Assembly: GCA_964624115.1 (NCBI GenBank)
Contig: CAZUXI010000001.1
Span: forward strand, 35,548-99,547
Source of the DNA: an uncultured Candidatus Peribacteria bacterium
GTDB lineage: Bacteria > Patescibacteriota > Gracilibacteria > UBA1369
Direction: 5' to 3'
Length of the DNA: 64,000 bases
Shown here: in pieces, positions 9,443 through 59,500 of the stretch
Numbering within the stretch: the stretch's first letter is position 1
Layout: every line of letters begins with the position of its first letter
Program-made: the position numbers and the translations under genes
The notes under the pieces: generated by a model
Databases searched by the model: none
Told to the model about the DNA's origin: nothing
What the model saw: only the letters and a program-made list of their open reading frames with translations

Positions 9443-9996
9443 GTATACCCGGAAGCGATTGGTTACTTGACGATTGTAGTAAAGAGTTCCGTCCCGGGAC
9501 GGCGAGAATTGGCTTTTTTGCTTATGGGGAAGCGGTTGAGTGTAAAAAAACTTGGTGATTCTTGTAGAATAATGGAGGGTGGAGTATTGACAAAATGTCA
9601 ATTTAATGATAAAAAGGTTCTCACGATTGATTTTGGGAGGCTTCTCGGATGAAAAGTTTTGGCTTTTCGGAGCTATAACACTTGATTCCGGCGGGGTTAA
9701 CCAGCGGTTGTGAGATCTTTGACACAACGGATACTTCAAATTATTAGGCTTTTGACTCTTTGAGCTGAAAGTTTACAGGGCCAAAACCTGTTCACCGGTG
9801 AAAGTGAATAGGTTTTGGCTCTGTGGCATTTTGCACGGAGTCGAAAATTCGCACTGCTCATGCAGTGCACACTTACCTTTACTTCACTTTACTTCCTTTG
9901 GATTCAAAAGGCGTTTGCCTCAGAATCCACTTAACCTCTTAGCGAAATGGTTCGCTGAGAGTTGTCTTTTCTCTAACCCATGAAAGGTTGACTCCC

Positions 9997-39972: not shown

Positions 39973-40548
39973 ATGAATAAAGTTCTCGGCGATACCAAGA
40001 TGTTAACACCAAAACAGGCTCAAGAACTTCTGAGTACTTTAAAGGCTCGTTTTGAAAAAAATATGTTCCGGCATAAGGGACTTGAATGGTCTCAAATACA
40101 GGCAAAGCTGGAAACGTGTAGTCAAAAACTTTGGTCACTGAATGCAATGGAAAGTACTGGCGGTGAGCCAGATGTGGTTGGATATGACAAGAAAACCGGC
40201 GACTATATTTTTTTTGACTGTTCAGCAGAAAGTCCTAAGGGCCGGAGAAGCTTTTGTTATGACCGCAAGGCGTTGGATTCACGAAAAGAACATAAACCCA
40301 AAAACAGCGCTTTGGATGCGGCTGCAGAGATGGGCGTTGTACTTTTAAATGAAGAACAGTATCGGGAATTGCAGGCACTTGGAGAGTTTGATACAAAAAC
40401 TTCCAGTTGGGTAGAAACTCCTGCTGAGATTCGAAAACATGGTGGTGCGATCTTTTGTGATCGTCGCTATGATCATGTTTTTACCTACCATAATGGGGCT
40501 GAATCTTACTATGCTGCGCGAGGATTTCGTGGATCCTTAAGGGTTTAA
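39973..40548 (+). CDS. DUF4256-like protein
   Basis: 191 aa, with WSLNAMESTGGEPDVVGYD...YIFFDCSAESPKGRRSFCYD. The family assignment is from memory. Confidence 0.5.
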   Translation: MNKVLGDTKMLTPKQAQELLSTLKARFEKNMFRHKGLEWSQIQAKLETCSQKLWSLNAMESTGGEPDVVGYDKKTGDYIFFDCSAESPKGRRSFCYDRKALDSRKEHKPKNSALDAAAEMGVVLLNEEQYRELQALGEFDTKTSSWVETPAEIRKHGGAIFCDRRYDHVFTYHNGAESYYAARGFRGSLRV

Positions 40549-42335
40549 AATCCGCCTAAATCGGTTGATTTGTAGATCGGTTTTATTCCTTCCGCTTGGA
40601 GAAATTCACTGAATGGTTTTAGATTTTCAGCTTCATAGCGTACCTTGAATTTTTGAATATCTTCTGGCTTGTGAATTGCTGGATCCAAAATGAGTTTTTC
40701 TACGGGAATTGGTCGGTCTTTGGATATTTTTGCATCGATAAGGACTGTGTACCCTGCTTTTCGGGCCTGTTCGGCCTGATCAAAAATTGTTGTTAAGTCT
40801 TCAATTTTTCTGGCGGTGTAGGACTTTGCTCCCATGGCTTCCGCCACTTTTGCGTAGTCGACATCCATAAACTCCACCCCTAAATATCCTGTATTGGTAT
40901 CTTCCTGTTCATCTTTAATGAAACCGAATTGAGCGTTGGCAAAAACGATATTTACGATGGGAAGTTTGTATTGAACCTGGGTTGCGAGGTCTTGCATCAC
41001 CATTTGAAAAGCGCCATCACCTGAAAGTGACCAGACTTGGCGATGAGGGAAATCGAGTTTCGCTGTAATTGCACCGGGTAGGCCAATCCCCATGGTCGCA
41101 AAGAGATTTGATGTACGCCACATTTGCTTTGGGTTCATGTGCAAATGACGAATTGACGTTTGAGTTACGTCACCCACATCGACTGAGAAAATTGCGTCTG
41201 TTTCAGCGTGTTGGTTAATGGCGTTATAAACCTGGTACAGATGCAAATCTCCTGAAGTTTTTGTTTCAAGATTTTTCACATACTCATTCCAGTTTTTTAC
41301 ATTGTTCACATTTGCTCGCCACCAGGGAGTTTCTGCTTTTTCCTCTACCATTTTGATGAGTTCTCTGACGGCATCACCTGCGTCGGCTAAGATGGTTACA
41401 TCGTTTGAATGTCGTTTTCCCAGGTTCGCGAGATTAATATCGATTTGGATGAAGTTTTTGACGTTTTCAAAAAGATTGGTTACTTCGGCGAAAGGGTAAT
41501 TGTTTCCAATAAAAACGACGGTCTCTGCGTTTGGAAATGCCTCATTGGCGGGCTTCGTGGCGACACGATTTGCTGAACCCAGCATTGCTTCGTAATCAGC
41601 GGGGAAATTGTCAAAATTTATTGCGGTAATGGCAATTGGGGCTTTGATTTTTTGGGAAAGTTTTATTACGTCTTCACCTGCACCACGAGTTCCGATACCG
41701 GCATAGAGAATTGTTTTTTCGGATTGGTTGAGGATTTTTGCTGCTGCTTCGAGATCGGCCAAATTTAGGGTTGGATTTGGGTATTTTCGATGCGCGTTCG
41801 CGCTGGAGTAAAATTTCCTTGCTGGAATATCTTTCCAGCCGAGATCTACTGGTAATTGGACTACGGCTACCCCCCTTTTGGCGTAAGCTTGGCGAATTGC
41901 TTCATCAATCACATGAGGCAACTGTTCGGCTGTCATGACAGTTCGGTTGTAGATCGAGACGTCAGCGTATATTGGGTTTTCGTTCATTTCCTGAAAAGCG
42001 TCCATGTTCATTCCGGTTGTTGAGAACTGCCCGATAATAGCGAGGACTGGCATATGGTCTTCACGGGCGTCGTATAAGCCGTTGAGGAGGTGGGTTCCTC
42101 CAGGGCCTGCGCTCCCAAAACAAACGCCGAGGTGGCCGGTAAACTTGGTATGCATGCTGGCGGCCATGGCTCCTACTTCTTCGTGGCGCACTTGGATGTA
42201 GTTGATTTTGTCTTTCTCAGCTAAAAGGGCATCCATGAGCGTGTTTATTGAGCCGCCGGGAATACCGTAAATGTGTTTTACTCCCCACTCCTCGAGTACT
42301 TTTACTGCGGCGATGCCGGATTTGATGGTTTCCAT
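40545..42335 (-). CDS. spxB: Pyruvate oxidase (TPP/FAD-dependent, Lactobacillus Pox/SpxB type)
   Basis: It contains long stretches I recognise from lactic-acid-bacterial pyruvate oxidase: YGIPGGSIN, YIQVRHEEVGAMAA, CFGSAGPGGTHLLNGLYDAREDHMPVLAIIGQ, FQEMNENPIYADV, and the TPP motif GDGAFQM. Confidence 0.85.
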   Translation of the reverse strand: METIKSGIAAVKVLEEWGVKHIYGIPGGSINTLMDALLAEKDKINYIQVRHEEVGAMAASMHTKFTGHLGVCFGSAGPGGTHLLNGLYDAREDHMPVLAIIGQFSTTGMNMDAFQEMNENPIYADVSIYNRTVMTAEQLPHVIDEAIRQAYAKRGVAVVQLPVDLGWKDIPARKFYSSANAHRKYPNPTLNLADLEAAAKILNQSEKTILYAGIGTRGAGEDVIKLSQKIKAPIAITAINFDNFPADYEAMLGSANRVATKPANEAFPNAETVVFIGNNYPFAEVTNLFENVKNFIQIDINLANLGKRHSNDVTILADAGDAVRELIKMVEEKAETPWWRANVNNVKNWNEYVKNLETKTSGDLHLYQVYNAINQHAETDAIFSVDVGDVTQTSIRHLHMNPKQMWRTSNLFATMGIGLPGAITAKLDFPHRQVWSLSGDGAFQMVMQDLATQVQYKLPIVNIVFANAQFGFIKDEQEDTNTGYLGVEFMDVDYAKVAEAMGAKSYTARKIEDLTTIFDQAEQARKAGYTVLIDAKISKDRPIPVEKLILDPAIHKPEDIQKFKVRYEAENLKPFSEFLQAEGIKPIYKSTDLGGF

Positions 42336-47082: not shown

Positions 47083-47168
<86 letters not shown>

Positions 47169-47229: not shown

Positions 47230-48345
47230 TTATTTGGGTTTTTGATTTGCTTCCAAAAGCGCGCGTAAGCTTGAAAGGCGATCTGATACTGTAGTTAGTT
47301 GCTGGCGCATTTGTGCCGTACTGAGTGCAGGTGTTGATTCTTGTTTGTTTTCGCCAAAAAGGTTCATTACCCGTTGTAAAAAACCGGTTGATTCGGCGAT
47401 CTGAGGTTCTTTTTTCTGATTTTCTAAATTGTTTCTCATGCGGATAAGTTCACGGATGAGTCGCTTGATGGTTTCCGGGTCGAATTCTTTGGCAATGACA
47501 CTCAGGTTACTACCGTATATTTCCAATACTCTTACGAGACATCTTGCCATCACCAGCTCCATTTCTTCTAAAAGCGCTTTCCAGTTTTCCAGGTCCTGTG
47601 AAGTTGGTTCCAAGCCATAGAGTTCACGTTCTTCGGCTTGACCGTGAATATTATTTGCTGCTTTTCTTAAATTTCCTACCTGGCTAGCTGTCTGCATCAC
47701 AGTCGTTTGAATACCTAATTGTGTTGCCTGCAAAATTGAGACCAGGTAATCATCGATTATTTTAAACATTTGGAGAGCGTTTTTGGGATCTTCAAAAAAG
47801 CCATCAATGAAGTAAAGTCTGCCAACATCTTCGACCAGGGCGTCGGTTGGTGCTACCGCAGATGTAAGTTCACGATTCGCAGCTCTACCGCTCGATAATG
47901 ATTTTGGCATCTGGTTAAACTGTTGTATGGCAAAATCTAATCTTTCCGCTACGCTTAGGCTATTTCCCTGATTAAGAACCGGCTCTAATGTCTGAGGATC
48001 GACAAGTAAAGGCTGGGCAAAACGGTTCAAGATTTGATCAAGATGTCGCATCACCTGCTGCAACCCTCTTACCAAAGCTGCGGCGGTTTCTATGTTTGCC
48101 TCTCTATCAAGCGCTTTTTTTGCACCGGCGCCGACGGCTTCATTTTTAAAACTTTCAAAGACTACACCCAATTGATAGTGTGCCAAGGCGAGCCTTTCCT
48201 GAATACCAGCAACTTCGCGGCGTGCTAATGTCAAAGCATTTTGGCGGTTTTCCAAAGCTGTTGTACCACCGTCCAGAAATGAAGTTTCATCGATCACGAT
48301 GTCTGGTGCAGCTTGAATCGGTGGTTTTGAGCCTTTTGATGTCAT
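47230..48345 (-). CDS. Hypothetical helical protein (371 aa)
   Basis: Clean ORF with an ATG start and native codon usage. It has no TM or signal peptide, and I recognise no family. Confidence 0.55.
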   Translation of the reverse strand: MTSKGSKPPIQAAPDIVIDETSFLDGGTTALENRQNALTLARREVAGIQERLALAHYQLGVVFESFKNEAVGAGAKKALDREANIETAAALVRGLQQVMRHLDQILNRFAQPLLVDPQTLEPVLNQGNSLSVAERLDFAIQQFNQMPKSLSSGRAANRELTSAVAPTDALVEDVGRLYFIDGFFEDPKNALQMFKIIDDYLVSILQATQLGIQTTVMQTASQVGNLRKAANNIHGQAEERELYGLEPTSQDLENWKALLEEMELVMARCLVRVLEIYGSNLSVIAKEFDPETIKRLIRELIRMRNNLENQKKEPQIAESTGFLQRVMNLFGENKQESTPALSTAQMRQQLTTVSDRLSSLRALLEANQKPK

Positions 48346-48481
48346 TTGAGTGATTTAATTTTCAGGCGGGAATGTTAGGGCGGAAAGACGTTTTTTTCAA
48401 GTGTATTTAAGTATTTTTTGGCGCTTTTTCTTGCCAATGAATGTTTTTGGCCTTAGAGTAGAGATACTTAATGAAGTTAAT

Positions 48482-48940
48482 ATGGTAGCTTTTGAAGACG
48501 AAAGAGAGAGATGTGAAGGGGATGCTGATGTTTTGTCACCAACACCTTTTCAACGAGCACTCGAGGATGAAATGGAAAATGCACGGCATGAACCTGTAAG
48601 GAAAAGAGAAATTGAGGTTCGAAGTCTGGTTGCACAAACTCTTTCTCCTGAAAGACAACAACAGATTGACGGTTTTAAAGCTGAGCTTTTAGCTTTACCT
48701 AAAGAGCTTAGGGCTCAACGTGTTGCTGAAATGCGAAAACAGGACCCTGACCTTATTAACTCGGTTCAAGCAAGTTTACGTGCAAAATCTGAAGAGACCG
48801 CGCAACAGCTTCAGGCGGTTCGTGATAGCCATGCTCAAGGGCAACAGACGGATGCTATGATTATTCGAGCCATGCAAAAGGTTGGCAATGATACTTTGAA
48901 TGCCATTGAAGATGTTCGGAAGAGAAGGAGAAGCGCTTAG
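48482..48940 (+). CDS. Hypothetical charged/coiled-coil protein (152 aa)
   Basis: ORF 48401..48940; the start is taken at ATG 48482 (MVAFEDERER...). It is divergent from the 371-aa gene and sits upstream of the radical-SAM-like gene. Confidence 0.45.
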   Translation: MVAFEDERERCEGDADVLSPTPFQRALEDEMENARHEPVRKREIEVRSLVAQTLSPERQQQIDGFKAELLALPKELRAQRVAEMRKQDPDLINSVQASLRAKSEETAQQLQAVRDSHAQGQQTDAMIIRAMQKVGNDTLNAIEDVRKRRRSA

Positions 48941-49010: not shown

Positions 49011-49038
49011 TTGACAATTAAATATAGCATTTTATAAT
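49011..49038 (+). promoter_or_regulatory. Consensus sigma-70 promoter
   Basis: TTGACA (49011-16), 16 nt, then TATAAT (49033-38), 22 nt upstream of ATG 49060. Confidence 0.6.
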
Positions 49039-49059: not shown

Positions 49060-50742
49060 ATGAGGAAATTACCACTTTTTCCATCGCCACGTGAAGGGAC
49101 GCAGGCCTCTGGAGAACAACATAAAGCTTCTGAAACTGAGGGCCTTCCTTTGACTGAATTTGTGGTCCAAAATACCAAGGGCGAGGTTGAAGGAACACTG
49201 GAAAATGAAAAAATCCTTACGGCTCGGAAACTTGCGAAAAGTTTTTGTCAGCAACCTTATCCGCTTACTCTTCAGGGTGAAAATTTAAAAGCCCTTCTTA
49301 CTGCTCTCCTGCAGGCTCGAGATGATCAAAAACTTTTGGAGATGTTTGATCAAATTCCTACGGTTGAAAGTCCGCGGCTTGAACTTTTTCGGGATTTGAA
49401 TTTCACACCGAATCAAGAGTTTGAGCTCTTTTTGCATCCTGGGATTACCAATATCCAGGTCACCAAAGGGTGTAGTCATAAGTGTACTTTTTGTGCGGCA
49501 TCAGCTAAAGAAGGTGTTGATCATATGCCTTTTATGGCTATCCTTAAAATTGAACAGGCAAAAAAGACTTTTTATCAAAAATTGCGGAATTTGCGTGAAG
49601 AAATAAATGTTATGGCGGCAGAGAAAAAAGATGGCGGTGTTCTTGAGGTCCTGATGGAACAAAGAGAAGCGCTTATTGCACGAGGATTCAGTCCTCAACT
49701 TCTTGATGATCTTCTTCAAAAACTTCGGAGCTTTTTTGCTCTTGAGGATCAGTATATGGCGGGCCTGGATATCCCTCTTTCTTCTAAAGCTTATGAAGAT
49801 TATCAAACGATCCTTTATTGTCTGCCGGATGACATTGATGAAGAGGTAGGTCACGAAGGTATTGAAGCTATTTATAAGGGCATTTTGGGACTTCTTGAAC
49901 ATTATAAGGACACTGAAAGGCCGCAGCGTGGCGATCAACAGTCTCGAAGTTTAGCGCAGGATGTTGCAGCCATTTTATGGAATCGAAAACAACTTTTCCC
50001 TACTTTTGAAACGTTGCTTTTTGTGTATGCCGGAAGGGATAAGTCCCCTACTACGAATTATTACGATAGTGACCCTTTGGATTACCGGGATAAAAATTTT
50101 CTCCATGCGGATGGAACTATGGCTGATTTTGGTGATGTGGTTGAGCTTTTGACTCAAACTCAACTGGTGCATGTGACCACAGCCGGCTGGAATCCAAAAG
50201 ACAAGATTGCAGGGAAAGCGGCTCGTAAAATTGCTAGAATTGCTAAAAGTAAACTGCCGAATTTACGACTTAGTGTGAATCCATATGAAGTTCAAGCGCT
50301 TAAAAGCTATGAGCGATACTTAGAATCAATCACAGAAAATGTGGAAATTCTTACTCCTGTTTTACGTGAAGTGCTCTTTTTTTTGCGATCAACACTGACG
50401 GAAGTGGGTGGCAAAAAATATTATAAAACAGATCCGGAACATCAACGATTTCATCTTGAGGTGGTGGTGCCGATTGTTCGGATGATCGAGAAACACAATA
50501 AGTCTTTAGGGCTTCGTGCAGATAGTTCTTATATTAAAATTATTTATGCAACAGTTTCTGATTTTTCTGGGCCCAGTGCGGTAAAAGGTTCTGAAGATCA
50601 TGATGTTATGGCCTGTATGCCGGGTCTTCATATTTGGCCGGATGGGACGGTGAGTTTACAGGCTGGAAGCAATCTAGACAAGGTACCTCTAGGAAGTCGA
50701 CCTACACCAACTGGAGCCAAATTGCCTTTTGGGGTAGCGTAA
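49060..50742 (+). CDS. Radical-SAM-like protein with a large insertion between the CxxxCxxC cluster and the rest of the core
   Basis: tgt agt cat aag tgt act ttt tgt at 49471-49494 gives C138-x3-C142-x2-C145 (KGCSHKCTFCAAS). GGEPL-like YYDSDPL appears only at aa 334-340, followed by VHVTTAGW and LRLSVNP, which resemble later core strands. Confidence 0.5.
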   Translation: MRKLPLFPSPREGTQASGEQHKASETEGLPLTEFVVQNTKGEVEGTLENEKILTARKLAKSFCQQPYPLTLQGENLKALLTALLQARDDQKLLEMFDQIPTVESPRLELFRDLNFTPNQEFELFLHPGITNIQVTKGCSHKCTFCAASAKEGVDHMPFMAILKIEQAKKTFYQKLRNLREEINVMAAEKKDGGVLEVLMEQREALIARGFSPQLLDDLLQKLRSFFALEDQYMAGLDIPLSSKAYEDYQTILYCLPDDIDEEVGHEGIEAIYKGILGLLEHYKDTERPQRGDQQSRSLAQDVAAILWNRKQLFPTFETLLFVYAGRDKSPTTNYYDSDPLDYRDKNFLHADGTMADFGDVVELLTQTQLVHVTTAGWNPKDKIAGKAARKIARIAKSKLPNLRLSVNPYEVQALKSYERYLESITENVEILTPVLREVLFFLRSTLTEVGGKKYYKTDPEHQRFHLEVVVPIVRMIEKHNKSLGLRADSSYIKIIYATVSDFSGPSAVKGSEDHDVMACMPGLHIWPDGTVSLQAGSNLDKVPLGSRPTPTGAKLPFGVA

Positions 50743-50772
50743 ATTTCCCAAAATAATTTGGGAGGGTTTTTC

Positions 50773-50848
50773 TGGAGCCACTTGTCGGACTCGAACCGAC
50801 GACCCACTGTTTACAAAACAGTTGCTCTACCAGCTGAGCTAAAGTGGC
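50773..50848 (-). tRNA. tRNA-Thr (UGU), CCA encoded
   Basis: Acceptor GCCACTT/AAGTGGC, D arm GCTC-AGCTGGTA-GAGC, anticodon loop TTTGTAA, T loop TTCGAGT, T plus CCA. Confidence 0.9.
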
Positions 50849-51951: not shown

Positions 51952-52160
51952 GGCAAAAGCTTGCGATGTTTGGAGGGCTGGCGTTGGAGTTGCACGGGTG
52001 CTGTGGCAGTTTGTTGCGGGGCCGGGCGTTTTTTGTTTTCTTTTGCCTGATTCCCAGACCAATGTGAGGGCTGTTTGCAGGTCGTAGCATTGCTACTAAA
52101 AACTTGACGAATTTGGATTTTGGCGTATCTTGATGCAAATTGTTATCTTTTTTTGATTTT

Positions 52161-52904
52161 ATGAGTGAGAAACCTGGTTCAAATGAGGGTGAAAATCTTG
52201 ATCTACCGCCTATTCCTGATGAGATTCGGCAGATTTTGAAAAATCCGCAGGCAGCAAAAAAATTGCTTGGAAGCCTTGAAGAGATTGTTTTGCCTTTTGG
52301 CCAATGGCAGCTGATTATCACTCCTGACAAATATACGATTGTGAATCCTGGTCCAAATGGGGAAAAAAGGTTTTACCAGGTTACTCCAGGTAAATATGGT
52401 GAACCGCTGATTACTGCTGAACCTGATAAGGCTTTTGCTCCACCAACGAATCTCCGATATGTTGATGGTAAAGGGCAAACCACTACACCAAATGAAAAAA
52501 TTGCGGGGATAGTCTGTAAAGATGGGCCCAGATTTAGCCTGTCTTCTCCTCAGGCTCCTGAATTTGTAATTTCTCCTGAAGGGGATTTGATTATTGGTGA
52601 AACCCGTTACGCATTGAACGCTCTTTATAAAAAAGATGACCGACGGATTACAAATTATGATGCTTATTTTTCCAAAGTTAAACCGGCTGAAGTACGTGTG
52701 CTTGAGCTGGGTGACCTGGATCTTTATTCGAAAAGCGAGTCTTCTGCTGCACAAACTGCACCTGTTACAACTTTTATCCCTGCAGCACCACAGCCGGTAA
52801 CACCCCCGGTTCAACAGCAGGAGAATCCGCAAGACCCTGGTTTATTTGAGCGTGTTGAAAACTGGTTTAAGGAGCTGGCTAAGAAGATTCGTAATTTATT
52901 TTAG
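52161..52904 (+). CDS. Hypothetical protein (247 aa) with a Pro-rich C-terminal segment
   Basis: ORF 52140..52904; the start is at ATG 52161 (MSEKPGSNEG). I recognise no family. Confidence 0.5.
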   Translation: MSEKPGSNEGENLDLPPIPDEIRQILKNPQAAKKLLGSLEEIVLPFGQWQLIITPDKYTIVNPGPNGEKRFYQVTPGKYGEPLITAEPDKAFAPPTNLRYVDGKGQTTTPNEKIAGIVCKDGPRFSLSSPQAPEFVISPEGDLIIGETRYALNALYKKDDRRITNYDAYFSKVKPAEVRVLELGDLDLYSKSESSAAQTAPVTTFIPAAPQPVTPPVQQQENPQDPGLFERVENWFKELAKKIRNLF

Positions 52905-52911
52905 CCTGATT

Positions 52912-53604
52912 ATGTACTCTTCAACTGCCAACTGGAGTCACTGTTGGGGTGATGTGTATGGGCATGAGTATAAGCTTCAAGATGTTTTACCTGTACTTGA
53001 TAGATTTGATGCTGAACGAGGGTTGGGAGAGGTTATTCTGGATGTTGGAAGTGGAAAACACCTCTACCTTGATATGCTCACAAGACCTCATTCGATAGTT
53101 GCTGTTGATATTGCGGGGGCAGCTGAAAAAAATGGTAGTGTTTTTGATGGTGTACCTTTGAGCAGAGCAAAGGTTTTGGGTGCTCAGTATGATATTCGAA
53201 AAATTACTGATTCAAGTGCTCGTGAAACCCGCTCGGTGCTGGCAAAAGTTGGAGGATTTTTGGGTGTTGATTGTCAACAGGGCGATTCTCAGCGCCAAAT
53301 TGATACTGTATATTTTGGTGATATTTTTAATTATCTGGATTATCCGGTGGTCTTGAACGGCATCAGCAGATATATGAAAGTGGGAGGGAAAGTGGCTATT
53401 GCCAATCAACCTGGGCGGGGTTATGGACATCTTTTTGCGCCTGAACGACCACAAAATAATACTGAGTTGTTGATGACGTTAGAAAAGTTGGGGTTTGAAC
53501 TGTTATATAGATGGGATGATGTGCTGATTGGGGAGAATGAAAATAACTGTTATACGGTGATGATTGCACGGTTTCCGGAGGAGATCAGTACAGAGTGGAA
53601 GTGA
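52912..53604 (+). CDS. Class I SAM-dependent methyltransferase-like protein
   Basis: Motif I VILDVGSGKH, and post-I/II spacing consistent with a Rossmann methyltransferase. The start is at ATG 52912. Confidence 0.5.
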   Translation: MYSSTANWSHCWGDVYGHEYKLQDVLPVLDRFDAERGLGEVILDVGSGKHLYLDMLTRPHSIVAVDIAGAAEKNGSVFDGVPLSRAKVLGAQYDIRKITDSSARETRSVLAKVGGFLGVDCQQGDSQRQIDTVYFGDIFNYLDYPVVLNGISRYMKVGGKVAIANQPGRGYGHLFAPERPQNNTELLMTLEKLGFELLYRWDDVLIGENENNCYTVMIARFPEEISTEWK

Positions 53605-53780: not shown

Positions 53781-54170
53781 ATGCTGAAAAAAATCAAAAA
53801 AGCTCTGGTGATTGGCACCTACACCGTTATGGGCTTCAACCTTGTATCTGTTCTCCCTGTGAGTGCCCAGGGAATGATCTCTGAAAAAGATCAACCATCA
53901 CGTATTTCTGATGCAACGGGTGGAGCTGATGATTTCAGAACCCTTGCTCAGACTTTTTTAAGCTTTTTCCTTGGATTTTTGGGATTCATCGCGGTGATGA
54001 TGATCATTTATGCCGGTATTTTGTATATTACTGCTCAAGGTGAACAAGATAAGGTTGATAAAGCAAAGAAAATTATTACTTACTCTATCGTAGGTATTCT
54101 TATTATCCTCCTCTCTTACGCTATCGTTAGTACTGTTCTTGGTGGTGTTGGTGCAGGTAGTGATCAGTAA
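53781..54170 (+). CDS. TrbC/VirB2-like 'T4SS pilin' small membrane protein
   Basis: Signal peptide ending VSAQG, then two TM helices around a conserved loop (IAVMMIIYAGILYITAQGEQDKVDKAKKIITYSIVGILIILLSYAIV). This pattern is common in Patescibacteria, from memory. Confidence 0.65.
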   Translation: MLKKIKKALVIGTYTVMGFNLVSVLPVSAQGMISEKDQPSRISDATGGADDFRTLAQTFLSFFLGFLGFIAVMMIIYAGILYITAQGEQDKVDKAKKIITYSIVGILIILLSYAIVSTVLGGVGAGSDQ

Positions 54171-54335
54171 AAAGGAGTTTCGAGCGCTTTTGGATGAACG
54201 AGCGCTGGTAAAATCGCCCTAGAAAAGCTTTAAAAAAGACCTGTCGGAAACGATGGGTCTTTTTTTGTTTGTAATCGCTGGGAAACTCAAAGGTCCAAGC
54301 ATCAAACGATCAAATATTGAAATGAAAGTTTTGGC

Positions 54336-54479
54336 TTAGCGCCACTTCTTGATGAATTTTACGACGTCGAAGTTTTTGGGGAGTTTGACGTCGGAGAAAG
54401 CTTTTTGGAGGTCGATCATGGCTTGTTTGAGCTCCATGGCGTCTTTCGTCATTTTTTGTTTTTTTCGTGAGTTGGTCAT
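54336..54479 (-). CDS. 47-aa basic ORF translationally coupled to the 3' end of the PIN gene (possible cognate partner)
   Basis: Own translation: MTNSRKKQKMTKDAMELKQAMIDLQKAFSDVKLPKNFDVVKFIKKWR. Its ATG overlaps the PIN TGA (ATGA). It is below the 60-aa cutoff of the ORF track. Confidence 0.4.
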   Translation of the reverse strand: MTNSRKKQKMTKDAMELKQAMIDLQKAFSDVKLPKNFDVVKFIKKWR

Positions 54480-54889
54480 ATGGTTTTTGGATTAAATTGT
54501 TCGTAAGCGGCAAGAAGTTTTTTATCACCAGTTAGAAAAATATCGACATTATATTCTTGAGTGTATGCCAAAATAATCAAATCATGTGTATGTAATTTAA
54601 TCTTCTTGGTATAAAAATCAAATTTTTTGAACCAGAAAATTTCCTTGGAGCAGAATTTTTTTATATTTTTTCGCCTGAAAGTGTATTCGAGTTTTTGTTC
54701 TTTTATTGTATCGAATAACATTCGGTGAAGTACGTTTTTCACTTCCGCATAGATTATTTCTGGCAATAGAATAATTGAATCTTTTTCAATTAGTTTCATT
54801 ATTTTATTTGTGGTTTCACGATCTTTTTCAATACCCAGGGCATAGGAGATCCAGGTGGAGCTGTCGAAGAGGCAGGTTTTTTTGTGCAT
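54476..54889 (-). CDS. PIN-domain (VapC-like) ribonuclease
   Basis: Four acidic positions lie in the expected order: CLFDSS, IIYAEV, THDLIILAY, LTGDKKL. Confidence 0.7.
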   Translation of the reverse strand: MHKKTCLFDSSTWISYALGIEKDRETTNKIMKLIEKDSIILLPEIIYAEVKNVLHRMLFDTIKEQKLEYTFRRKNIKKFCSKEIFWFKKFDFYTKKIKLHTHDLIILAYTQEYNVDIFLTGDKKLLAAYEQFNPKTI

Positions 54890-54951
54890 AGGGGTTGGTG
54901 ATTTGCTTGAGGATAGTGGAGAGAGTTAAAGGAAAGTTAAAAAAGAGATGA

Positions 54952-55113
54952 AATTTCACGAAAGGAAAACGGGGTTTTCCTCTCGTGGGCTCTCCTTTCC
55001 TGTAGAGTCAAAAACCAACTTTTCCTGCGCTTAACTTCGCATTTTTCTTTTTTGGGACCCACAAGACCCTAAAAAGTAAAATACTACGTGCGCTCCGGAA
55101 AAGTTGATTTTTG
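54952..55113 (+). repeat. Repeat element copy B
   Basis: It reads NFTKGKRGFPLVGSPFL* with no start codon. The hairpin is aggaaaac/gttttcct. The outer stem is 55010-55025 paired with 55097-55112 (15/16). The core is nearly identical to copy A. It ends about 25 nt from the terminator of GC cassette 3. Confidence 0.8.
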
Positions 55114-55138
55114 CTGTGATTTTTTTTGGGGGCATTGG

Positions 55139-55176
55139 AAAAGAGCCCTCGACGTCGGATGACGGAGGGCTCTTGG
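55139..55176 (-). terminator. Hairpin terminator of the cassette-3 gene
   Basis: aagagccctc (55141-50) pairs perfectly with gagggctctt (55165-74). On the minus strand it is followed by a short T-run. Confidence 0.5.
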
Positions 55177-55369
55177 GGATGGACCGCAGGGACGCGCCTC
55201 GAGCCGTTGCCTTGGGAGGCTTGGGCGAGAGCGTTGCGATACGCGGGTGAGGCGCGTTTACCTGAAGGTCCATGGTGTGCCCGGGCAGAGTTTCAAATGT
55301 CTCTGCTCGGGCGTGAATCACGGTGAGCTCCCCAGCTCAGCGTGAGTGGCTCGATCGAGTTCTAAACTT

Positions 55370-56224
55370 CTAGAACTCGATCCCGTTCGGGCCAACCTTT
55401 TTCGGGTTGGCGAACGGCCAGCTTGGGGGGTTGAACGCCGGCTGGGAGGAGGCGGAGCCCGAGGAGGCTCCGCCGGGCCACGTGGGCGCCACCACGATGG
55501 TGACGTTGGTGGGGGGCTGGCCAGGCGCCCCGGGGATTGTCGTGGTGGTCGGGGCGGTGGGGATCCAACCTGGGGGGGTGGGGGCGGAGGGGGTCCAGCC
55601 GGGGGGGAGCGGAGGAATGGGCGGGATAGCGCTGGGGAAGCCGGGGGGCGGGTTCGGGGGCTGGGGCACCGGAACCCAGCCAGGGGGGAGAGGGGGCGGC
55701 GGGACCTGAGTGGGAGGGGCGGTCGGAGGGGGCGGGGCGGTCTGGGTTGAGGTCGGAGCGGGAGGTGAGGCGGGGGTGGATGACGTTGCGGTTGGCGGGG
55801 CGGGGTTGCCGTTGGACGAGCAACCCTTGTACAAAAGGCCTGCGCCGATGATAGCCGCGAGAACTCCGCCAGTGATGGCCCACGTTTGCCACTTCTTGTA
55901 CCAAGGGGTGGCGGCCGGAGCCGGTACGGGGACGATCGGAGGGACGAACCCGGGGGCGCCGGGGGCAGCCCACGCGGCCAACATGGCGCCGTTGTTGAAG
56001 GTGGCCAGAGGGCCAGCGAGCGCGGTTGCCATGGGGCTGCCAGCCGGAGCGGCGGCGACCATGGCGGCGTGGAGGTTGTTGAGTTGCGTCTGATCGGGGT
56101 TACCACCAACCCCGAAGAGGGTATCGAACTGTGTCCCGGCGGCGGTGGTATCCGCCGGGTTGAGCACGCCCACGCCATTCGGCGGGGCGGCTACGCTCCA
56201 GATGAACTGCTGTCGAGTTGCCAT
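55370..56224 (-). CDS. Orphan single-pass membrane protein with a PPGW-repeat polyproline C-terminal region, carried on GC-rich cassette 3
   Basis: AAGGAG lies 8 nt before ATG 56224 (MATRQQFIW...). The TM is WAITGGVLAAIIGAGLLY, followed by LPPGWVP...LPPGWTP...PPGWIP. Codons are G/C-ending. The alternative frames are Arg/Pro junk. Confidence 0.6.
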   Translation of the reverse strand: MATRQQFIWSVAAPPNGVGVLNPADTTAAGTQFDTLFGVGGNPDQTQLNNLHAAMVAAAPAGSPMATALAGPLATFNNGAMLAAWAAPGAPGFVPPIVPVPAPAATPWYKKWQTWAITGGVLAAIIGAGLLYKGCSSNGNPAPPTATSSTPASPPAPTSTQTAPPPPTAPPTQVPPPPLPPGWVPVPQPPNPPPGFPSAIPPIPPLPPGWTPSAPTPPGWIPTAPTTTTIPGAPGQPPTNVTIVVAPTWPGGASSGSASSQPAFNPPSWPFANPKKVGPNGIEF

Positions 56225-56522
56225 GGTGGCAACTCCTTTCTGGCGCACACAGGCGCCGGTGAAATCTCCCCCGCCTTGGCTCGGGAGAGCAAACGGGGGA
56301 GGGTTAAGGTTTCAGGTAAACGTGCCAAGGAGGAAAAATCTTTTTAAGCAAGATCTCTTTTCCTTGGCGCGTTTCGGTTGGATTGTCAAAGGGCGTCGAT
56401 ATCTTTTCTTTATGGTTGGGGAGGAATTTTCGTTATCTCTTCAAAACAGAAGAGTAGATTTATCATGAATTTGGTATTTTGTCAACTGTTCAGTGGGTAG
56501 TCAATTGGTTCGGGTGGCTTGT

Positions 56523-59500
56523 TTAGGCTGCTAAGGTGCTCATTTCATTTTGAATGGCTTGGAGGTTTCTTGTTACGATCTGTTGGTAATTCTGTGTAAA
56601 ATTGGAAGGTCCCCATGGGGTGCTACCGCTACCACCGCTCGCTCCGGTTTGGTTCTGCCAAGCTCTTTGCCATAAATTGACGATTCCATTGAGGGCTTGG
56701 GCTACTGTTTTTTGTTCGGTCGGATCGGTGATTTTTTTTGGGTCGTGGTTCATGAAGAAACTGAGGTCGTCGAGGCGGAGTTCTGAATTTTCTTGAGGGT
56801 TTGCGAGGATTGCGGTGAGGGTGTTGTAGGTTTGGGTGAGTTGTGGGTATTTATCCTGAATTGTGATGCCGTCTTTGGCTTCCTGGATTTGGGCTGGATT
56901 GGCCTGTATTTGATTGAGAAGATGAACGGTGTAACGGGCATCGATGCCGATTTTGGCTCGATTGGTGGCTTCTTGGGCGAGTTCGGTTTGGAGTACTTTT
57001 GCTTCCGCTAAGAGTTGGCGGAAGGTTTTGTGGGAATTGTAGAAAGCGAGCTCTTCTGAACTTGGATCGAAGTTGTTTTTTGCCATGGTGAGGCCGAGTT
57101 TGGTGAGTTCGAGCGCTGGGCTGCTTGCTGGTGTTGCTTCAAGGATTGCCAGAGAGTTCCTGGCAAGGGTGAGGTGGTCAAGGCGGCGGCTTTTTTTTGC
57201 CTGCTCCATGGTTTGGTAAAGATTTGTTGCGGCGACGATTCGCTGGTTGCGGAGATCGAATGCAGTGAGGGCGGCGGCTTCAAAGGTGGTGTGTTTTCCG
57301 TTTTGTTCGTTGATTTCTGTGGTGATCAGGGATGGGAGTTTTATGAGACTCATGATGGTTTCGCAGGCTTGTTGATCTACGGCCATAAGATCGTTAAGGA
57401 TTTGATTTGCTTCCTGCTCATATTTTTGGGTATCTTCCAACATTAGACCGGTATTTCTCCAATGGTCGGCGGTTTGGGCACTGAGGCAGAGCAACCAGGC
57501 ACGGCGGATTTTTTGTTTTTCCGGGTGGGACGCAAAAGCTGGAATGAGGTCGTCGGGGAAAATGAACCCTGATGATTTGCTTAATGGCTCAATGATATCG
57601 GTGAAGGTATCGATGGGTTCGAGGTTCAAATCTTTGGTTGAGACCTCATTTACTTGTTTTACGATGTGTCCAACTGAACCTTTCCAATGTTTGAGAAGCT
57701 GAGCAACTCCCTTGCTGAGCGGTGCATTGGGCGACCAGAGACTGATGGTGCGGAGCTTGCCGGTGACACTCGCCGTGAGCCAGCGTTTGATACCTAAGTT
57801 TTCGTGTTTTTCAAGGGCATCACGGAGTCTTTTTTCTTCTATTTCCAACGGTGTGGGACCAGCGGGTTGTGGTGGGATGGATTGGTTTACCGGTGCTACT
57901 TGAGGTGATTGGGGAGCAGGGTTTGGGGCTGGTTGAAGTGTTGGAGTTGGTTGAGGGGCGGATGGAGCGGGAGAAGAGGGGACTCGGGCTGGTTGGGGTG
58001 CTGGAGCTGGGGTTGGAGTTTGTGCAGATGCGACTGGAGCAGGGGGAGTGACGGGAGGGAGTGATTGCAGGACAGGGGGAGTTGAAGGAGCTGGTGGGGT
58101 AGGCTGTGTTGAAATAGCTGGGGGATGGGCTGGAGTTGGCGGCACTGGAGGCAGTGGAGGTGTGGCAGAAGTGGCTGCAGGATGTGCAGAGGGAGCCAGT
58201 TGGAATGGTTGGTTTGGTGGGGCAAATTGAACTGTGGTTGTTGTGCCTGAGGACGCTCCGTCATTTGGCGGAGGTGGCATGGTAAGTGGACCTGGCATTG
58301 GACCGTTTGAGGGTACTGTTGGAGCTGGGGCGTTTATTTGGGCTGGTGCTGCTGATGTTGGTCCGGGGATGACTGAGGGTGATGGAAGAAAAGGTGCAGG
58401 ATGATTTGTTTTTGGGAAACCGTGTTCGAGGTATTCGGTTAAACGGCCGAGGTTTTTTGCGATTTTATTGAACGCTTCAAGACGAAGGTAGTTCGCAGGC
58501 TCTGAAAAGCCACCGTTCGCTTTTATCTCACGTTCGAGGAGTTCGGATTTGGCTTTCAGTATGACAACGAGTGCTTCGGTGAGTTTTATTTGCTCAGCTA
58601 CTGATGGCACACTTATTTGGAGTGGATCGTAGGTAGAGTTTTCCAGGATGCTGAGGTCGGTCAGATCGTCTTTTCCTTCTAAAATGGCAATGTAGGTTTG
58701 ATCAATGAGTGGGTATTTTTGATAGAGTTTTGCTCCTTGATCTATTCCTCCCTGAAGCTGTTTTGAACTGGTTCCAAACTGGCTAAAGTTGAATGGTCGA
58801 TCAAACGAGCCCTCAGAAAAGGGTTGATCTGCACATATTTCGTGGATAAGGTCGTTGGTTTGGACGGGGGCAAAACCTTGATGGGCAAGATTTGTAGCTT
58901 CTGCACCGTATTTCATTATGAAGAGGTAGAGCTGATTAAGCATTTCTTCACGTGACATAAATTTCCATTCTTCCAAACTCTTAAAAGGGAACGGTTCGGG
59001 ATTTTCCTGGGCTTTCCCGGCACAACTGAGATGCTGTGCAATATTGAGCGCTGCTTCAAAAGCTTTTGGTGAGGTTTCAAGAAGTTCGAGATAGATGTTG
59101 ACTACTCTTTGAAAAGTTGCGAGGGGGTTGGTTTGGAGGTGTTGCTTATTGGCTTCTGTCAATTGTTGATAGAGGTTGTTGGCATTGATGATATTTTCCA
59201 GAATGGTGTTATTTACTTTTGACTCAACATCCGGTCTTTTGTGAAATCTTTCACGTTCCTGGGTTGCATCTGGAAGGGTTCCTTGTGCTTGCTGCATTAA
59301 AGCATCAAGTTTTTCTTTTTTAGCCTGCGTTTTATCTTCGATTTCTGCCTCACAAAGATTATCTATTTCGAGCCGACTATTGTTTTTGTAGTCGCCGCGT
59401 GTTTCTCTGAGAACGTATTCACATCTTATGAGCTGTGTTTCCTGAAGTATTGCCGTCTGAAGCGCGGCAATTTCCGGATGTTGTTTTTTCATCTCTTCAT

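What the first reader, a model, noticed from the sequence alone, without database searches (positions are those of the whole stretch)
49060..50742. Radical-SAM-like enzyme with about 190 aa inserted between the Fe-S cysteine triad and the SAM-binding strands
C138-x3-C142-x2-C145 (GCSHKCTFCAAS, with an aromatic residue before the last Cys) is a canonical radical-SAM cluster motif. In normal members a GGEP-like strand follows within a few tens of residues. Here the first plausible equivalents (YYDSDPL at aa 334-340, VHVTTAGW, LRLSVNP) come about 190 aa later, after a helical and acidic insert. There is also an N-terminal domain of about 130 aa and a C-terminal region of about 150 aa of unknown type.

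This is either a novel split or embellished radical-SAM architecture, or a non-radical-SAM protein that happens to carry the motif.
Basis: partly seen in the sequence, partly recalled or inferred. Interest (0 to 1): 0.6.

Follow-up and report, generated by a model that had tools for sequence, protein, structure and literature searches.

The report
Divergent radical-SAM enzyme with hypervariable insert
This gene encodes a very divergent, unannotated member of the radical-SAM enzyme superfamily whose catalytic barrel is interrupted by a fast-evolving helical insert of about 150 residues; it is a rare single-gene addition in a tiny-genome (Patescibacteria/Peribacteria-type) bacterium and its substrate is unknown.

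Summary

- **Family:** about 120 representatives at 50% clustering, publicly named "hypothetical protein". The Cys triad is invariant in 69- and 77-sequence alignments.
- **Insert:** deep-branching relatives have the YFDSDP-type strand 36-51 residues after the triad, the usual radical-SAM spacing. The crown clade has 75-228 (192 here). The insert (about aa 171-326) is therefore real, derived, variable in length, unalignable between relatives, helical and acidic.
- **Profile evidence:** removing it in silico extends the PF04055 match from profile positions 1-51 to 1-109, still below threshold (26.5 vs 29.5 bits).
- **Fold evidence:** AlphaFold gives six beta/alpha units. The nine best PDB matches of a short-insert relative are radical-SAM enzymes (EpeE, probability 0.99; OxsB).
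- **What it lacks:** no SPASM or twitch domain (only one further semi-conserved Cys), no B12, TRAM or RRE domain, and no conserved neighbours.
- **Genomic setting:** it has its own consensus promoter and terminator. It sits in a slot that is empty in syntenic relatives and occurs in about 1% of genomes of the phylum.

Verdict: a new architectural variant of a known superfamily. Catalysis is inferred and the substrate is unknown.

The parts
49011..49038 (+). Sigma-70-type promoter-like site: TTGACA, 16 nt, TATAAT (12 of 12 consensus positions), ending 21 nt before the ATG
   Evidence: This is a consensus match only; no transcript data were available.
49060..50742 (+). Whole ORF, 560 aa plus stop: divergent radical-SAM family protein
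49060..49176 (+). aa 1-39: unconserved, predicted disordered N-terminal tail
   Evidence: pLDDT about 40; alignment occupancy 0.25-0.39
49177..49443 (+). aa 40-128: conserved family-specific helical N-terminal domain. It carries YPL..G and the near-invariant P100-T-V-E103-x-P105 segment that leads into beta1.
   Evidence: pLDDT 80-98; conservation; no Pfam family
49471..49494 (+). C138-S-H-K-C142-T-F-C145: CX3CX(aromatic)C motif, the predicted ligands of the radical-SAM [4Fe-4S] cluster. H140 is also near-invariant.
   Evidence: Invariant in 69 of 69 and 77 of 77 sequences. PF04055 aligns here.
49570..50037 (+). aa 171-326: derived, hypervariable, acidic helical insert between helix alpha1 and strand beta2
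   Evidence: Spacing is 36-51 in deep relatives and 75-228 in the crown clade. No Pfam hit. No similarity to the inserts of relatives. pI 4.75. pLDDT 46-71.
50059..50076 (+). Y334-Y-D-S-D338-P: end of strand beta2, positional equivalent of the GGE(P) SAM-binding motif
   Evidence: D338 is D or E in 68 of 69 sequences. Some relatives read FDGEP, YDAEP or YRGDP. PF04055 aligns across it after the insert is excised.
50167..50190 (+). V370-HVTTAGW377: strand beta3 and the T-A-G-W turn (near-invariant)
50263..50283 (+). L402-RLSVNP408: strand beta4 with S405 (S or T in 69 of 69), a candidate ribose-contacting position
   Evidence: The assignment to the ribose motif is an inference.
50380..50439 (+). 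aa 441-460: second, small lineage-specific insertion (a beta-hairpin after beta5)
   Evidence: Occupancy 0.37; strands 444-449 and 452-457
50560..50739 (+). aa 501-560: conserved C-terminal three-stranded element (D515-VMAC519-MPG-x-H-IWPDG ... GSRP548). It carries only one semi-conserved Cys.
50744..50775 (+). Terminator-like hairpin and T-run, 2 nt after the stop codon
   Evidence: pattern match only
50773..50848 (-). tRNA-Thr(TGT). Its 3' end abuts the gene. In syntenic relatives the upstream 179-aa gene lies 17 nt from this tRNA.

Best explanation
The gene encodes a genuine but very divergent radical-SAM (rSAM) enzyme of an undescribed family.

**Shown:**
- It has an invariant CX3CX(F/H)C triad on the loop after strand beta1.
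- It has a six-unit beta/alpha partial barrel whose nearest structural neighbours are rSAM enzymes.
- A helical N-terminal domain and a short C-terminal sheet are conserved across the family.
- A 156-aa acidic helical insert sits in the alpha1-to-beta2 connection. It arose once at the base of the crown clade and has since changed length (75-228 residues of spacing) and sequence freely.

**Inferred mechanism:**
- C138, C142 and C145 hold a [4Fe-4S] cluster whose fourth iron binds SAM.
- F144 stacks on the adenine.
- The D336-S-D338 turn replaces GGE in holding the methionine amino group.
- S405 and N407 on beta4 contact the ribose.
- One-electron reduction cleaves SAM to a 5'-deoxyadenosyl radical, which abstracts a hydrogen from the substrate.

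**Where the insert sits:** by barrel topology, an alpha-to-beta connection lies on the face opposite the cluster. The insert is therefore most probably a tolerated surface module, possibly a docking surface, and not part of the catalytic machinery.

**Substrate:** not identified. My best guess, at about 35%, is a protein or peptide. The nearest folds are EpeE and anSME/PqqE-type maturases, and in other lineages the domain is embedded in giant proteins.

**Genomic status:** the gene is a self-contained accessory unit with its own promoter and terminator. It sits next to tRNA-Thr at a site that is empty in syntenic relatives.
For: - **ORF and motif:**
- **Family size:** 120 representatives, 66 of them at E<=1e-30. 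All match as two blocks, aa ~42-175 and ~329-555.
- **Conservation:** the triad is invariant, and E103, H140, D338, Y342, D344, H349, D359, T374-W377, S405, Y420 and D515 are near-invariant.
- **Canonical spacing in relatives:** 36-51 residues in P0104, P0110-P0113, P0118, P0109 and P0090, with the flanking motifs kept (PTVxxP..LF, GCxxxCxxC, MPYPM, Y[FY]xSDP, THGW).
- **Pfam PF04055:** 23.3 bits over profile positions 1-51 for the native protein. With aa 171-326 removed it is 26.5 bits over positions 1-109. At least eight relatives each hit PF04055 at 17-29 bits, up to profile positions 2-143.
- **AlphaFold:** window protein pLDDT 79.5, with the core mostly above 90 and the beta/alpha units in order. 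Short-insert member P0034 has pLDDT 91.9 and pTM 0.90.
- **Foldseek, PDB:** ranks 1-9 are rSAM enzymes. EpeE has probability 0.96-0.99 over about 305 columns; OxsB has 0.90.
- **Foldseek, phage library:** 11 of the top 14 are rSAM proteins, with probability up to 1.00.
- **Foldseek, window model:** rSAM enzymes DesII, DUF512, QueE, RimO, EpeE and RlmN appear in the top 50.
- **Cofactor supply:** the genome also encodes five canonical rSAM proteins.
- **Tree:** the insert is derived.
- **Synteny:** relatives G018 and G030 have tRNA-Tyr / 371-aa gene / 179-aa gene / tRNA-Thr / MurB without this gene.
- **Rarity:** 2 of 61 relatives and 4 of 401 genomes of the phylum, the window's own included.
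- **Promoter and terminator:**
Against: - No family model reaches its curated threshold: PF04055 gives 23.3 or 26.5 bits against 29.5, and NCBIfam scores are 10-18 bits against cut-offs of 35-578.
- Sequence and profile searches of the PDB find nothing significant.
- Foldseek E-values are modest (1e-2 to 1e-3), TM-scores are 0.3-0.5 and rmsd is about 9 A.
- The GGE motif is replaced by DSD, and no GxIxGxxE-like beta5 motif is visible.
- No coordinates were available to me. I could not check the geometry of the three Cys, the SAM pocket or the position of the insert; the 'opposite face' statement is topological inference.
- There is no biochemical, expression or operon evidence for any substrate.
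Confidence: 0.75

Rival explanations
1. The protein descends from a radical-SAM scaffold and still binds an Fe-S cluster, but it no longer performs reductive SAM cleavage. It would then be, for example, a redox, sensor or structural Fe-S protein, or it would use another ligand.
For: - The canonical GGE motif is replaced by D-S-D, and no GxIxGxxE motif is seen.
- Scores against PF04055 stay below the gathering threshold even after the insert is removed.
- H140 inside the cluster loop is near-invariant, which is unusual for the motif.
Against: - The aromatic residue before the third Cys, which contacts adenine in rSAM enzymes, is F or H in 62 of 69 sequences.
- The acidic residue at the GGE position is kept in 68 of 69. 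Some members read G-E-P or G-D-P.
- S405 on beta4 is invariant as S or T.
- This pattern of conservation at SAM-contact positions is what selection for SAM binding would give.
Confidence: 0.13
2. The gene is one part of a three-gene functional module, together with the 371-aa and 179-aa ORFs, bracketed by tRNA-Tyr and tRNA-Thr.
For: The three ORFs are the only genes between tRNA-Tyr (47083-47168) and tRNA-Thr (50773-50848). None has a recognised family.
Against: - The 371-aa/179-aa divergent pair is conserved between the same two tRNAs in G018 and G030, which lack the rSAM-like gene.
- The only relative with the rSAM-like gene (G016) has neither of the other two genes nearby.
- No neighbour family recurs in 3 or more of the 16 loci that carry a homologue.
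- The gene has its own promoter-like and terminator-like signals.
Confidence: 0.05
3. The 'insert' is foreign or artefactual: an intein, a mobile-element remnant, a gene fusion or an assembly error inside an otherwise ordinary radical-SAM gene.
For: - The segment has no similarity to the corresponding segments of relatives.
- It is modelled with low confidence.
Against: - Every crown-clade member, from many independent assemblies and several candidate phyla-level lineages, has an in-frame segment at exactly this position.
- There are no intein, endonuclease or transposase signatures (protein 2: no Pfam family).
- A public gene call, P0001, is 100% identical over aa 156-560 and spans the whole insert.
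- No repeats flank it.
- Its lengths form a continuum (75-228), not a presence/absence pattern.
Confidence: 0.02
4. This is a non-radical-SAM protein that carries CX3CX2C by chance.
For: No curated model passes its threshold.
Against: - The triad is invariant across 77 sequences.
- The strand and helix order matches the rSAM core.
- The top structural matches in two independent libraries are rSAM enzymes.
- Multiple relatives hit PF04055 over most of its length.
Confidence: 0.02

Closest known systems
Radical SAM superfamily core (Pfam PF04055)
   Same: - It has CX3CX(aromatic)C on the loop after beta1.
- It has six beta/alpha units in the canonical order.
- An acidic turn ends beta2, and a polar residue sits on beta4.
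- Deep-branching relatives have canonical spacing (36-51 residues) between the triad and beta2.
   Different: - It scores below the Pfam gathering threshold.
- GGE is replaced by D-S-D.
- A variable helical insert of about 60 to 190 residues (about 150 here) sits in the alpha1-beta2 connection. From my own knowledge of the superfamily, I know of no characterised rSAM enzyme with an insert of this size there; the known irregularities are within the Cys motif itself, as in QueE and ThiC variants. I did not make a systematic literature check.
EpeE (YydG), the radical-SAM peptide epimerase of Bacillus subtilis (PDB 8AI1-8AI6)
   Same: It is the best structural match of the short-insert family member P0034: Foldseek probability 0.96-0.99, about 305 aligned columns of a chain of about 317-323 residues. 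Both have a compact rSAM core followed by a short C-terminal beta element.
   Different: - EpeE carries an auxiliary [4Fe-4S] cluster in an extended twitch ('T-SPASM') domain (PMC13012085). This family has only one semi-conserved extra Cys.
- EpeE is encoded beside its precursor peptide. This gene has no conserved neighbour.
- Sequence identity is 11-13%, and TM-scores are 0.30-0.42.
SPASM/twitch-type maturases (anSME/AslB, PqqE, MoaA-like)
   Same: They recur among the best matches in the phage structure library: AslB-type 'arylsulfatase regulator', a Nif11-peptide maturase and a MoaA/NifB/PqqE family protein. The beta3 turn T-A-G-W resembles the T-N-G turn of this group; that comparison rests on my own knowledge.
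   Different: There is no C-terminal Cys-rich domain. No NCBIfam model of this group scores above noise.
MiaB/RimO methylthiotransferases and B12-binding (class B) radical-SAM enzymes
   Same: There are weak NCBIfam alignments (E 1e-3 to 2e-2) over the segment just before and across the Cys motif, aa 83-167.
   Different: Scores are 14-18 bits against cut-offs of 251-360. There is no UPF0004, TRAM or B12-binding domain.

Membership tests
Radical SAM superfamily | CX3CX(aromatic)C motif after beta1 that supplies three ligands to a [4Fe-4S] cluster | tested here: met
   C138/C142/C145 with F144. The triad is invariant in 69 and in 77 homologues. Position 144 is F or H in 62 of 69. Cluster binding itself was not tested.
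Radical SAM superfamily | Score at or above the curated threshold of the family model (PF04055, 29.5 bits) | tested here: not met
   23.3 bits for the native protein. 26.5 bits with the insert excised in silico. Relatives score 17-29 bits.
Radical SAM superfamily | Partial (beta/alpha)6 TIM-barrel fold most similar to solved radical-SAM enzymes | tested here: met
   Both models show six beta/alpha units in order. PDB ranks 1-9 for P0034 are rSAM enzymes, probability up to 0.99. In the phage library, 11 of the top 14 are rSAM, probability up to 1.00. Caveat: E-values are 1e-2 to 1e-3 and TM-scores 0.3-0.5.
Radical SAM superfamily | GGE motif at the end of beta2 (binds the amino group of SAM) | tested here: inconclusive
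   The motif is replaced by Y-Y-D-S-D-P. The acidic residue is kept in 68 of 69 sequences, and some members have G-E-P or G-D-P. The position is correct in the PF04055 alignment after excision.
Radical SAM superfamily | Ribose motif on beta4 and GxIxGxxE-type motif on beta5 | tested here: inconclusive
   S405 on beta4 is S or T in 69 of 69 sequences. No GxIxGxxE-like pattern is visible on beta5 (aa 437-442, EVLFFL).
Radical SAM superfamily | Reductive cleavage of SAM to the 5'-deoxyadenosyl radical | not testable with these tools
   This needs anaerobic biochemistry.
SPASM / twitch subclass | C-terminal Cys-rich domain that ligates one or two auxiliary [4Fe-4S] clusters | tested here: not met
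   Only four alignment columns have 30% or more Cys: the triad and C519 (75%).
Class B (B12-binding) radical SAM | N-terminal cobalamin-binding domain (PF02310) | tested here: not met
   There is no Pfam hit in aa 1-130. The only similarity is a 14-16-bit NCBIfam alignment around the Cys motif.
MiaB/RimO methylthiotransferases | UPF0004 N-terminal domain with a second cluster, and a C-terminal TRAM domain | tested here: not met
   No such Pfam domains are found. TIGR00089 scores 17.8 bits against a cut-off of 251.
RiPP-maturase radical SAM (EpeE-like) | Encoded next to a precursor peptide and/or carrying an RRE domain | tested here: not met
   No neighbour family is shared by 3 or more of the 16 loci. 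Only 120 bp lie upstream in the window. ORFs shorter than 70 aa were not compared systematically.
Intein or mobile insertion | Splicing, endonuclease or transposase motifs in the inserted segment, and a presence/absence pattern | tested here: not met
   The insert has no Pfam family. Lengths form a continuous distribution from 75 to 228.

The most novel reading that the evidence does not exclude
The hypervariable acidic insert could be a diversifying recognition or docking module on a horizontally mobile radical-SAM 'effector'. On this reading, episymbiotic Patescibacteria use the enzyme, or other lineages use it as a domain of giant multi-domain proteins of 1,400-5,100 aa. It would modify a partner's or host's macromolecule, or the giant carrier protein in cis. 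That would make this a new functional class of radical-SAM enzyme in inter-organism interaction.
Probability: 0.08. Interest if true: 0.75.

Novelty: new variant of a known kind. Interest (0 to 1): 0.42.

Why it matters
Radical-SAM enzymes perform some of the most difficult reactions in biology, and most subfamilies have no known function. Three things make this one worth noting.

- **Annotation gap:** standard annotation misses the family. Public records call it "hypothetical protein", and it scores below the Pfam and NCBIfam thresholds.
- **Architecture:** the alpha1-beta2 connection of the core barrel accepts about 60-190 extra residues that drift freely in length and sequence. That is useful for enzyme engineers and for building better family models.
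- **Biology:** it is a rare, self-contained accessory gene in ultra-small genomes, where every retained gene is presumably under selection.

If the substrate proves to be a protein or a host molecule, it would add a new chemistry to the sparse biology known for Patescibacteria. As it stands, it is a well-supported structural variant with unknown function, not a new principle.

Tried and rejected
- **Direct sequence and profile searches of the PDB** gave only noise: a transposase, apolipoprotein A-IV, and a 12-bit hit to GDGT-MAS at the Cys motif.
- **NCBIfam** and **PADLOC** defence models found no family, so neither viperin-like nor any other known defence rSAM applies.
- **Foldseek with the full-length window model** was blurred by the low-confidence insert (best E 0.07, top hit a UV endonuclease TIM barrel). 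I therefore modelled the short-insert member P0034 instead.
- **Conserved gene neighbourhood:** none across 16 loci, and none shared with the one relative that has the gene.
- **The 'three-gene module' idea** was rejected by synteny.
- **Island signatures:** no flanking direct repeats or tRNA-fragment duplication, no integrase nearby, and GC like the surroundings.
- **Fusion partners in giant relatives:** only weak HEAT, DnaJ, kinase-like and ComF/PRTase-like hits, with no functional clue.
- **Suf operon:** one distant member lies beside a Suf Fe-S assembly operon. This is a single anecdote and carries no weight.
- **Literature search** for such a family in CPR bacteria found nothing relevant.
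- **Model coordinates are not exposed**, so I could not measure Cys-Cys distances or the position of the insert relative to the cluster.
Full report
**1. The observation**

The ORF listing finds the ORF exactly as reported: 49060..50742, + strand, 560 aa. My translation gives Cys at 63, 138, 142, 145, 254 and 519. The motif reads G137-C-S-H-K-C-T-F-C145-A-A-S. YYDSDPL is at aa 334-340, VHVTTAGW at 370-377 and LRLSVNP at 402-408. The stretch aa 171-326 is acidic (pI 4.75, 27 D+E against 18 K+R) and predicted helical.

Two points need correcting.
- The 192 residues between C145 and D338 include the normal helix alpha1, so the net insertion is about 150 aa.
- Most of the 'C-terminal 150 aa of unknown type' is the second half of the core. 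Only aa ~501-560 are extra.

**2. Is it a real, selected feature?**

An exhaustive phmmer search of 1.84 billion representatives found 120 proteins at E<=1e-3, and 66 at E<=1e-30. Nearly all match as two separate blocks, query aa ~42-175 and ~329-555. The word-indexed search found four.

In a 69-sequence alignment, G137, C138, C142, C145, P100, M156 and Y420 are invariant. These positions are 90% or more conserved: T101, V102, E103, P105, H140, P157, D338, Y342, D344, H349, G352, D359, T374-A-G-W377, S405, D515, G522, P527, G529 and P548. With eight more distant sequences added, the triad is still invariant. The residue before the last Cys is F in 43 sequences and H in 19, out of 69. The motif is under selection and is not a chance occurrence.

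**3. The insert**

In alignment A1 the number of residues between the last Cys and the D338 column ranges from 75 to 228, with a median of 138. The window has 192.

Distant representatives P0104, P0110, P0111, P0112, P0113 and P0118 keep the flanking motifs: PTVxxPxLxLF, GCxxxCxxC, MP[YF]PM.L, then Y[FY]xS[DE]PFxYxD, THGW and AQxAAE. Their spacing is only 36-41 residues; P0109 and P0090 have 43-51. From general knowledge of the superfamily, that is the usual distance between the cluster motif and the GGE strand in radical-SAM enzymes.

A maximum-likelihood tree on the 412 well-occupied core columns, midpoint-rooted, places the short-spacing sequences on the deepest branches. All crown-clade members have at least 102 residues, except P0034 (75), which is nested among sequences with 155-197. 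The insert was therefore gained once and has since expanded and contracted.

The sequence of the insert is not conserved. The window's aa 171-326 give no significant BLASTP match to the equally long inserts of P0014 or P0053 (E>=0.15). Occupancy and conservation collapse across aa 200-320. Pfam finds nothing in it. A second, small lineage-specific insertion (aa 441-460) forms a hairpin after beta5.

**4. Is the core a radical-SAM fold?**

*Profiles.* PF04055 hits aa 132-199, covering profile positions 1-51 of 166, at 23.3 bits. The threshold is 29.5. When aa 171-326 are cut out in silico, the same model aligns through YYDSDP, TTAGW and LSVNP to profile position 109, at 26.5 bits. Relatives P0104, P0111, P0118, P0121, P0094, P0109, P0093, P0105 and P0024 each hit PF04055 independently at 17-29 bits, up to positions 2-143. 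NCBIfam gives only 10-18-bit alignments at the Cys motif. PDB sequence and profile searches are negative.

*Structure.* AlphaFold2 on A1 gives pLDDT 79.5 and pTM 0.77. The core is mostly above 90 and the insert is 46-71. The elements in order are:
- beta1 129-132, then the Cys loop;
- alpha1 158-188, then the insert helices;
- beta2 ~331-337, then a conserved hairpin at 343-356;
- alpha2, beta3 370-374, alpha3, beta4 401-406, alpha4, beta5 437-442, alpha5, beta6 493-498;
- a three-stranded C-terminal element.

Foldseek with this model is weak (best E 0.07). Even so, it lists DesII, DUF512, QueE, RimO, EpeE and RlmN in the top 50.

To remove the blur from the insert I modelled P0034, a close family member (E 1.8e-51) with only 75 residues of spacing. 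It gave pLDDT 91.9 and pTM 0.90. Its nine best PDB matches are all radical-SAM enzymes: EpeE at probability 0.92-0.99 over about 305 columns, and OxsB at 0.90. QueE, HydE and MqnE follow. In the phage structure library, 11 of the top 14 are radical-SAM proteins, with probability up to 1.00. E-values (1e-2 to 1e-3) and TM-scores (0.3-0.5) are modest, so this is a remote relationship. Three lines agree on it: the motif, the profile and the fold.

**5. What it is not**

- There is no SPASM or twitch domain. Only four alignment columns are 30% or more Cys: the triad and C519 (75%).
- There is no B12-binding, UPF0004, TRAM or RRE domain.
- No PADLOC defence model matches.
- It is not an intein or a mobile insertion. 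It has no such motifs and its length distribution is continuous.

**6. Genomic setting**

The window belongs to a 1.43-Mb genome that is 98.7% complete. Its family-level relative G016 is on the same contig as L009, a Candidatus Peribacteria MAG. Named homologue-bearing genomes are Patescibacteria: Peri-, Uhr-, Falkow-, Magasanik- and Daviesbacteria. There are also two 'Gammaproteobacteria' MAGs and one short Desulfobulbaceae-labelled contig.

The gene is rare. It occurs in 2 of 61 family- and order-level relatives and in 4 of 401 genomes sampled across the phylum, the window's own included.

No neighbour family is shared by three or more of the 16 loci.

Relatives G018 and G030 have the order tRNA-Tyr / 371-aa homologue / 179-aa homologue / tRNA-Thr / MurB / T4SS-pilin-like gene. 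In G030 only 17 nt separate the 179-aa gene from tRNA-Thr. In the window, the 1.8 kb between them holds exactly three things: a perfect TTGACA-16-TATAAT site (49011-49038), this ORF, and a hairpin with a T-run 2 nt after the stop.

The 371-aa/179-aa pair is conserved in several relatives that lack the rSAM-like gene. The gene is a single-gene accessory unit. Given its rarity, it was most parsimoniously gained here. No repeats or integrase mark the event, and its GC content matches the surroundings.

The genome has five canonical radical-SAM genes, so cluster assembly and SAM supply exist.

**7. Mechanism**

*Shown:*
- conservation of the cluster ligands;
- conservation of an aromatic residue at the adenine-stacking position;
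- conservation of an acidic residue at the GGE position;
- conservation of S/T on beta4;
- the rSAM-like fold.

*Inferred:*
- binding of a [4Fe-4S] cluster and SAM;
- reductive cleavage of SAM to the 5'-deoxyadenosyl radical;
- hydrogen abstraction from a substrate held by the conserved polar residues E103, H140, Y342, D344, H349, D359, W377, Y420, D515 and H524.

The insert lies in an alpha-to-beta connection. In TIM-type barrels this faces away from the catalytic ends of the strands. Together with its hypervariability, this points to a tolerated surface module, possibly used for docking. I could not verify this on coordinates.

The substrate is unknown. I give about 35% to a protein or peptide. 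The nearest folds are peptide-modifying enzymes, and in P0024, P0097, P0105, P0120 and P0121 the domain is embedded in giant proteins. I give about 20% to RNA and about 25% to a small molecule.

**8. Novelty and score**

The superfamily is known. This family is unannotated: its public name is 'hypothetical protein'. Its architecture is an unusual variant, with a DSD-for-GGE turn and a large, evolving insert in the alpha1-beta2 connection.

It is a solid but moderate finding. It is useful for family modelling and as a candidate for enzymology in Patescibacteria. It is not a new principle unless the effector-type reading proves true.

Noticed in passing
window 40545-42335 (-): A TPP-dependent enzyme (PF02775, PF02776, PF00205) is 91% identical over 595 aa to its counterpart in relative G030 (L038 3383-5176). 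The syntenic neighbours MurB, the 371-aa protein and the pilin-like protein are only 26-52% identical. This suggests recent lateral exchange between genera, or exceptional constraint.
   Followed up: no
window 47230-48345 (-) and 48401-48940 (+): A divergently transcribed pair of family-less proteins (371 aa and 179 aa) lies between tRNA-Tyr and tRNA-Thr. The pair is conserved in at least five related genomes (G018, G030, G034, G035, G021), and in G018 and G030 it lies between the same two tRNAs. In G034 the 179-aa homologue carries three in-frame stops.
   Followed up: partly
window 9988-11928 (+) and 54000-58000: There are high-GC patches (64% and about 51%) in a genome of about 42% GC. The first encodes a 646-aa protein with a proline-rich N-terminus and many hydrophobic helices, and no Pfam family. 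The second holds a proline-rich 292-aa ORF (55370-56248, -) overlapped by several long ORFs on both strands.
   Followed up: no
window 52140-53604 (+): Two ORFs lie between MurB and the T4SS-pilin-like gene in the window: one of 254 aa with no family, and one of 252 aa with a weak methyltransferase hit. They are absent from that interval in G018 and G030. This is a second indel in the same neighbourhood.
   Followed up: no
L039 7001-9124 (distant family member P0109): This insert-less, 707-aa member lies divergently next to an Rrf2-SufB-SufC-SufD-SufS-NifU iron-sulfur assembly operon. A B12-binding radical-SAM gene lies two genes downstream, beyond a VapBC pair.
   Followed up: no
P0097 (5110 aa), P0105 (4537 aa), P0108, P0120, P0121, P0099, P0024; L019 3217-7278: In other lineages, including Gammaproteobacteria-labelled MAGs, the same divergent radical-SAM domain is embedded in giant proteins. 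Only weak HEAT, DnaJ, kinase-like and ComF/PRTase-like signatures accompany it.
   Followed up: partly
L006 2279-3652 (-) in G016: In the one family-level relative that has the gene, it lies convergent with a MiaB-type methylthiotransferase gene. This is probably coincidence.
   Followed up: no
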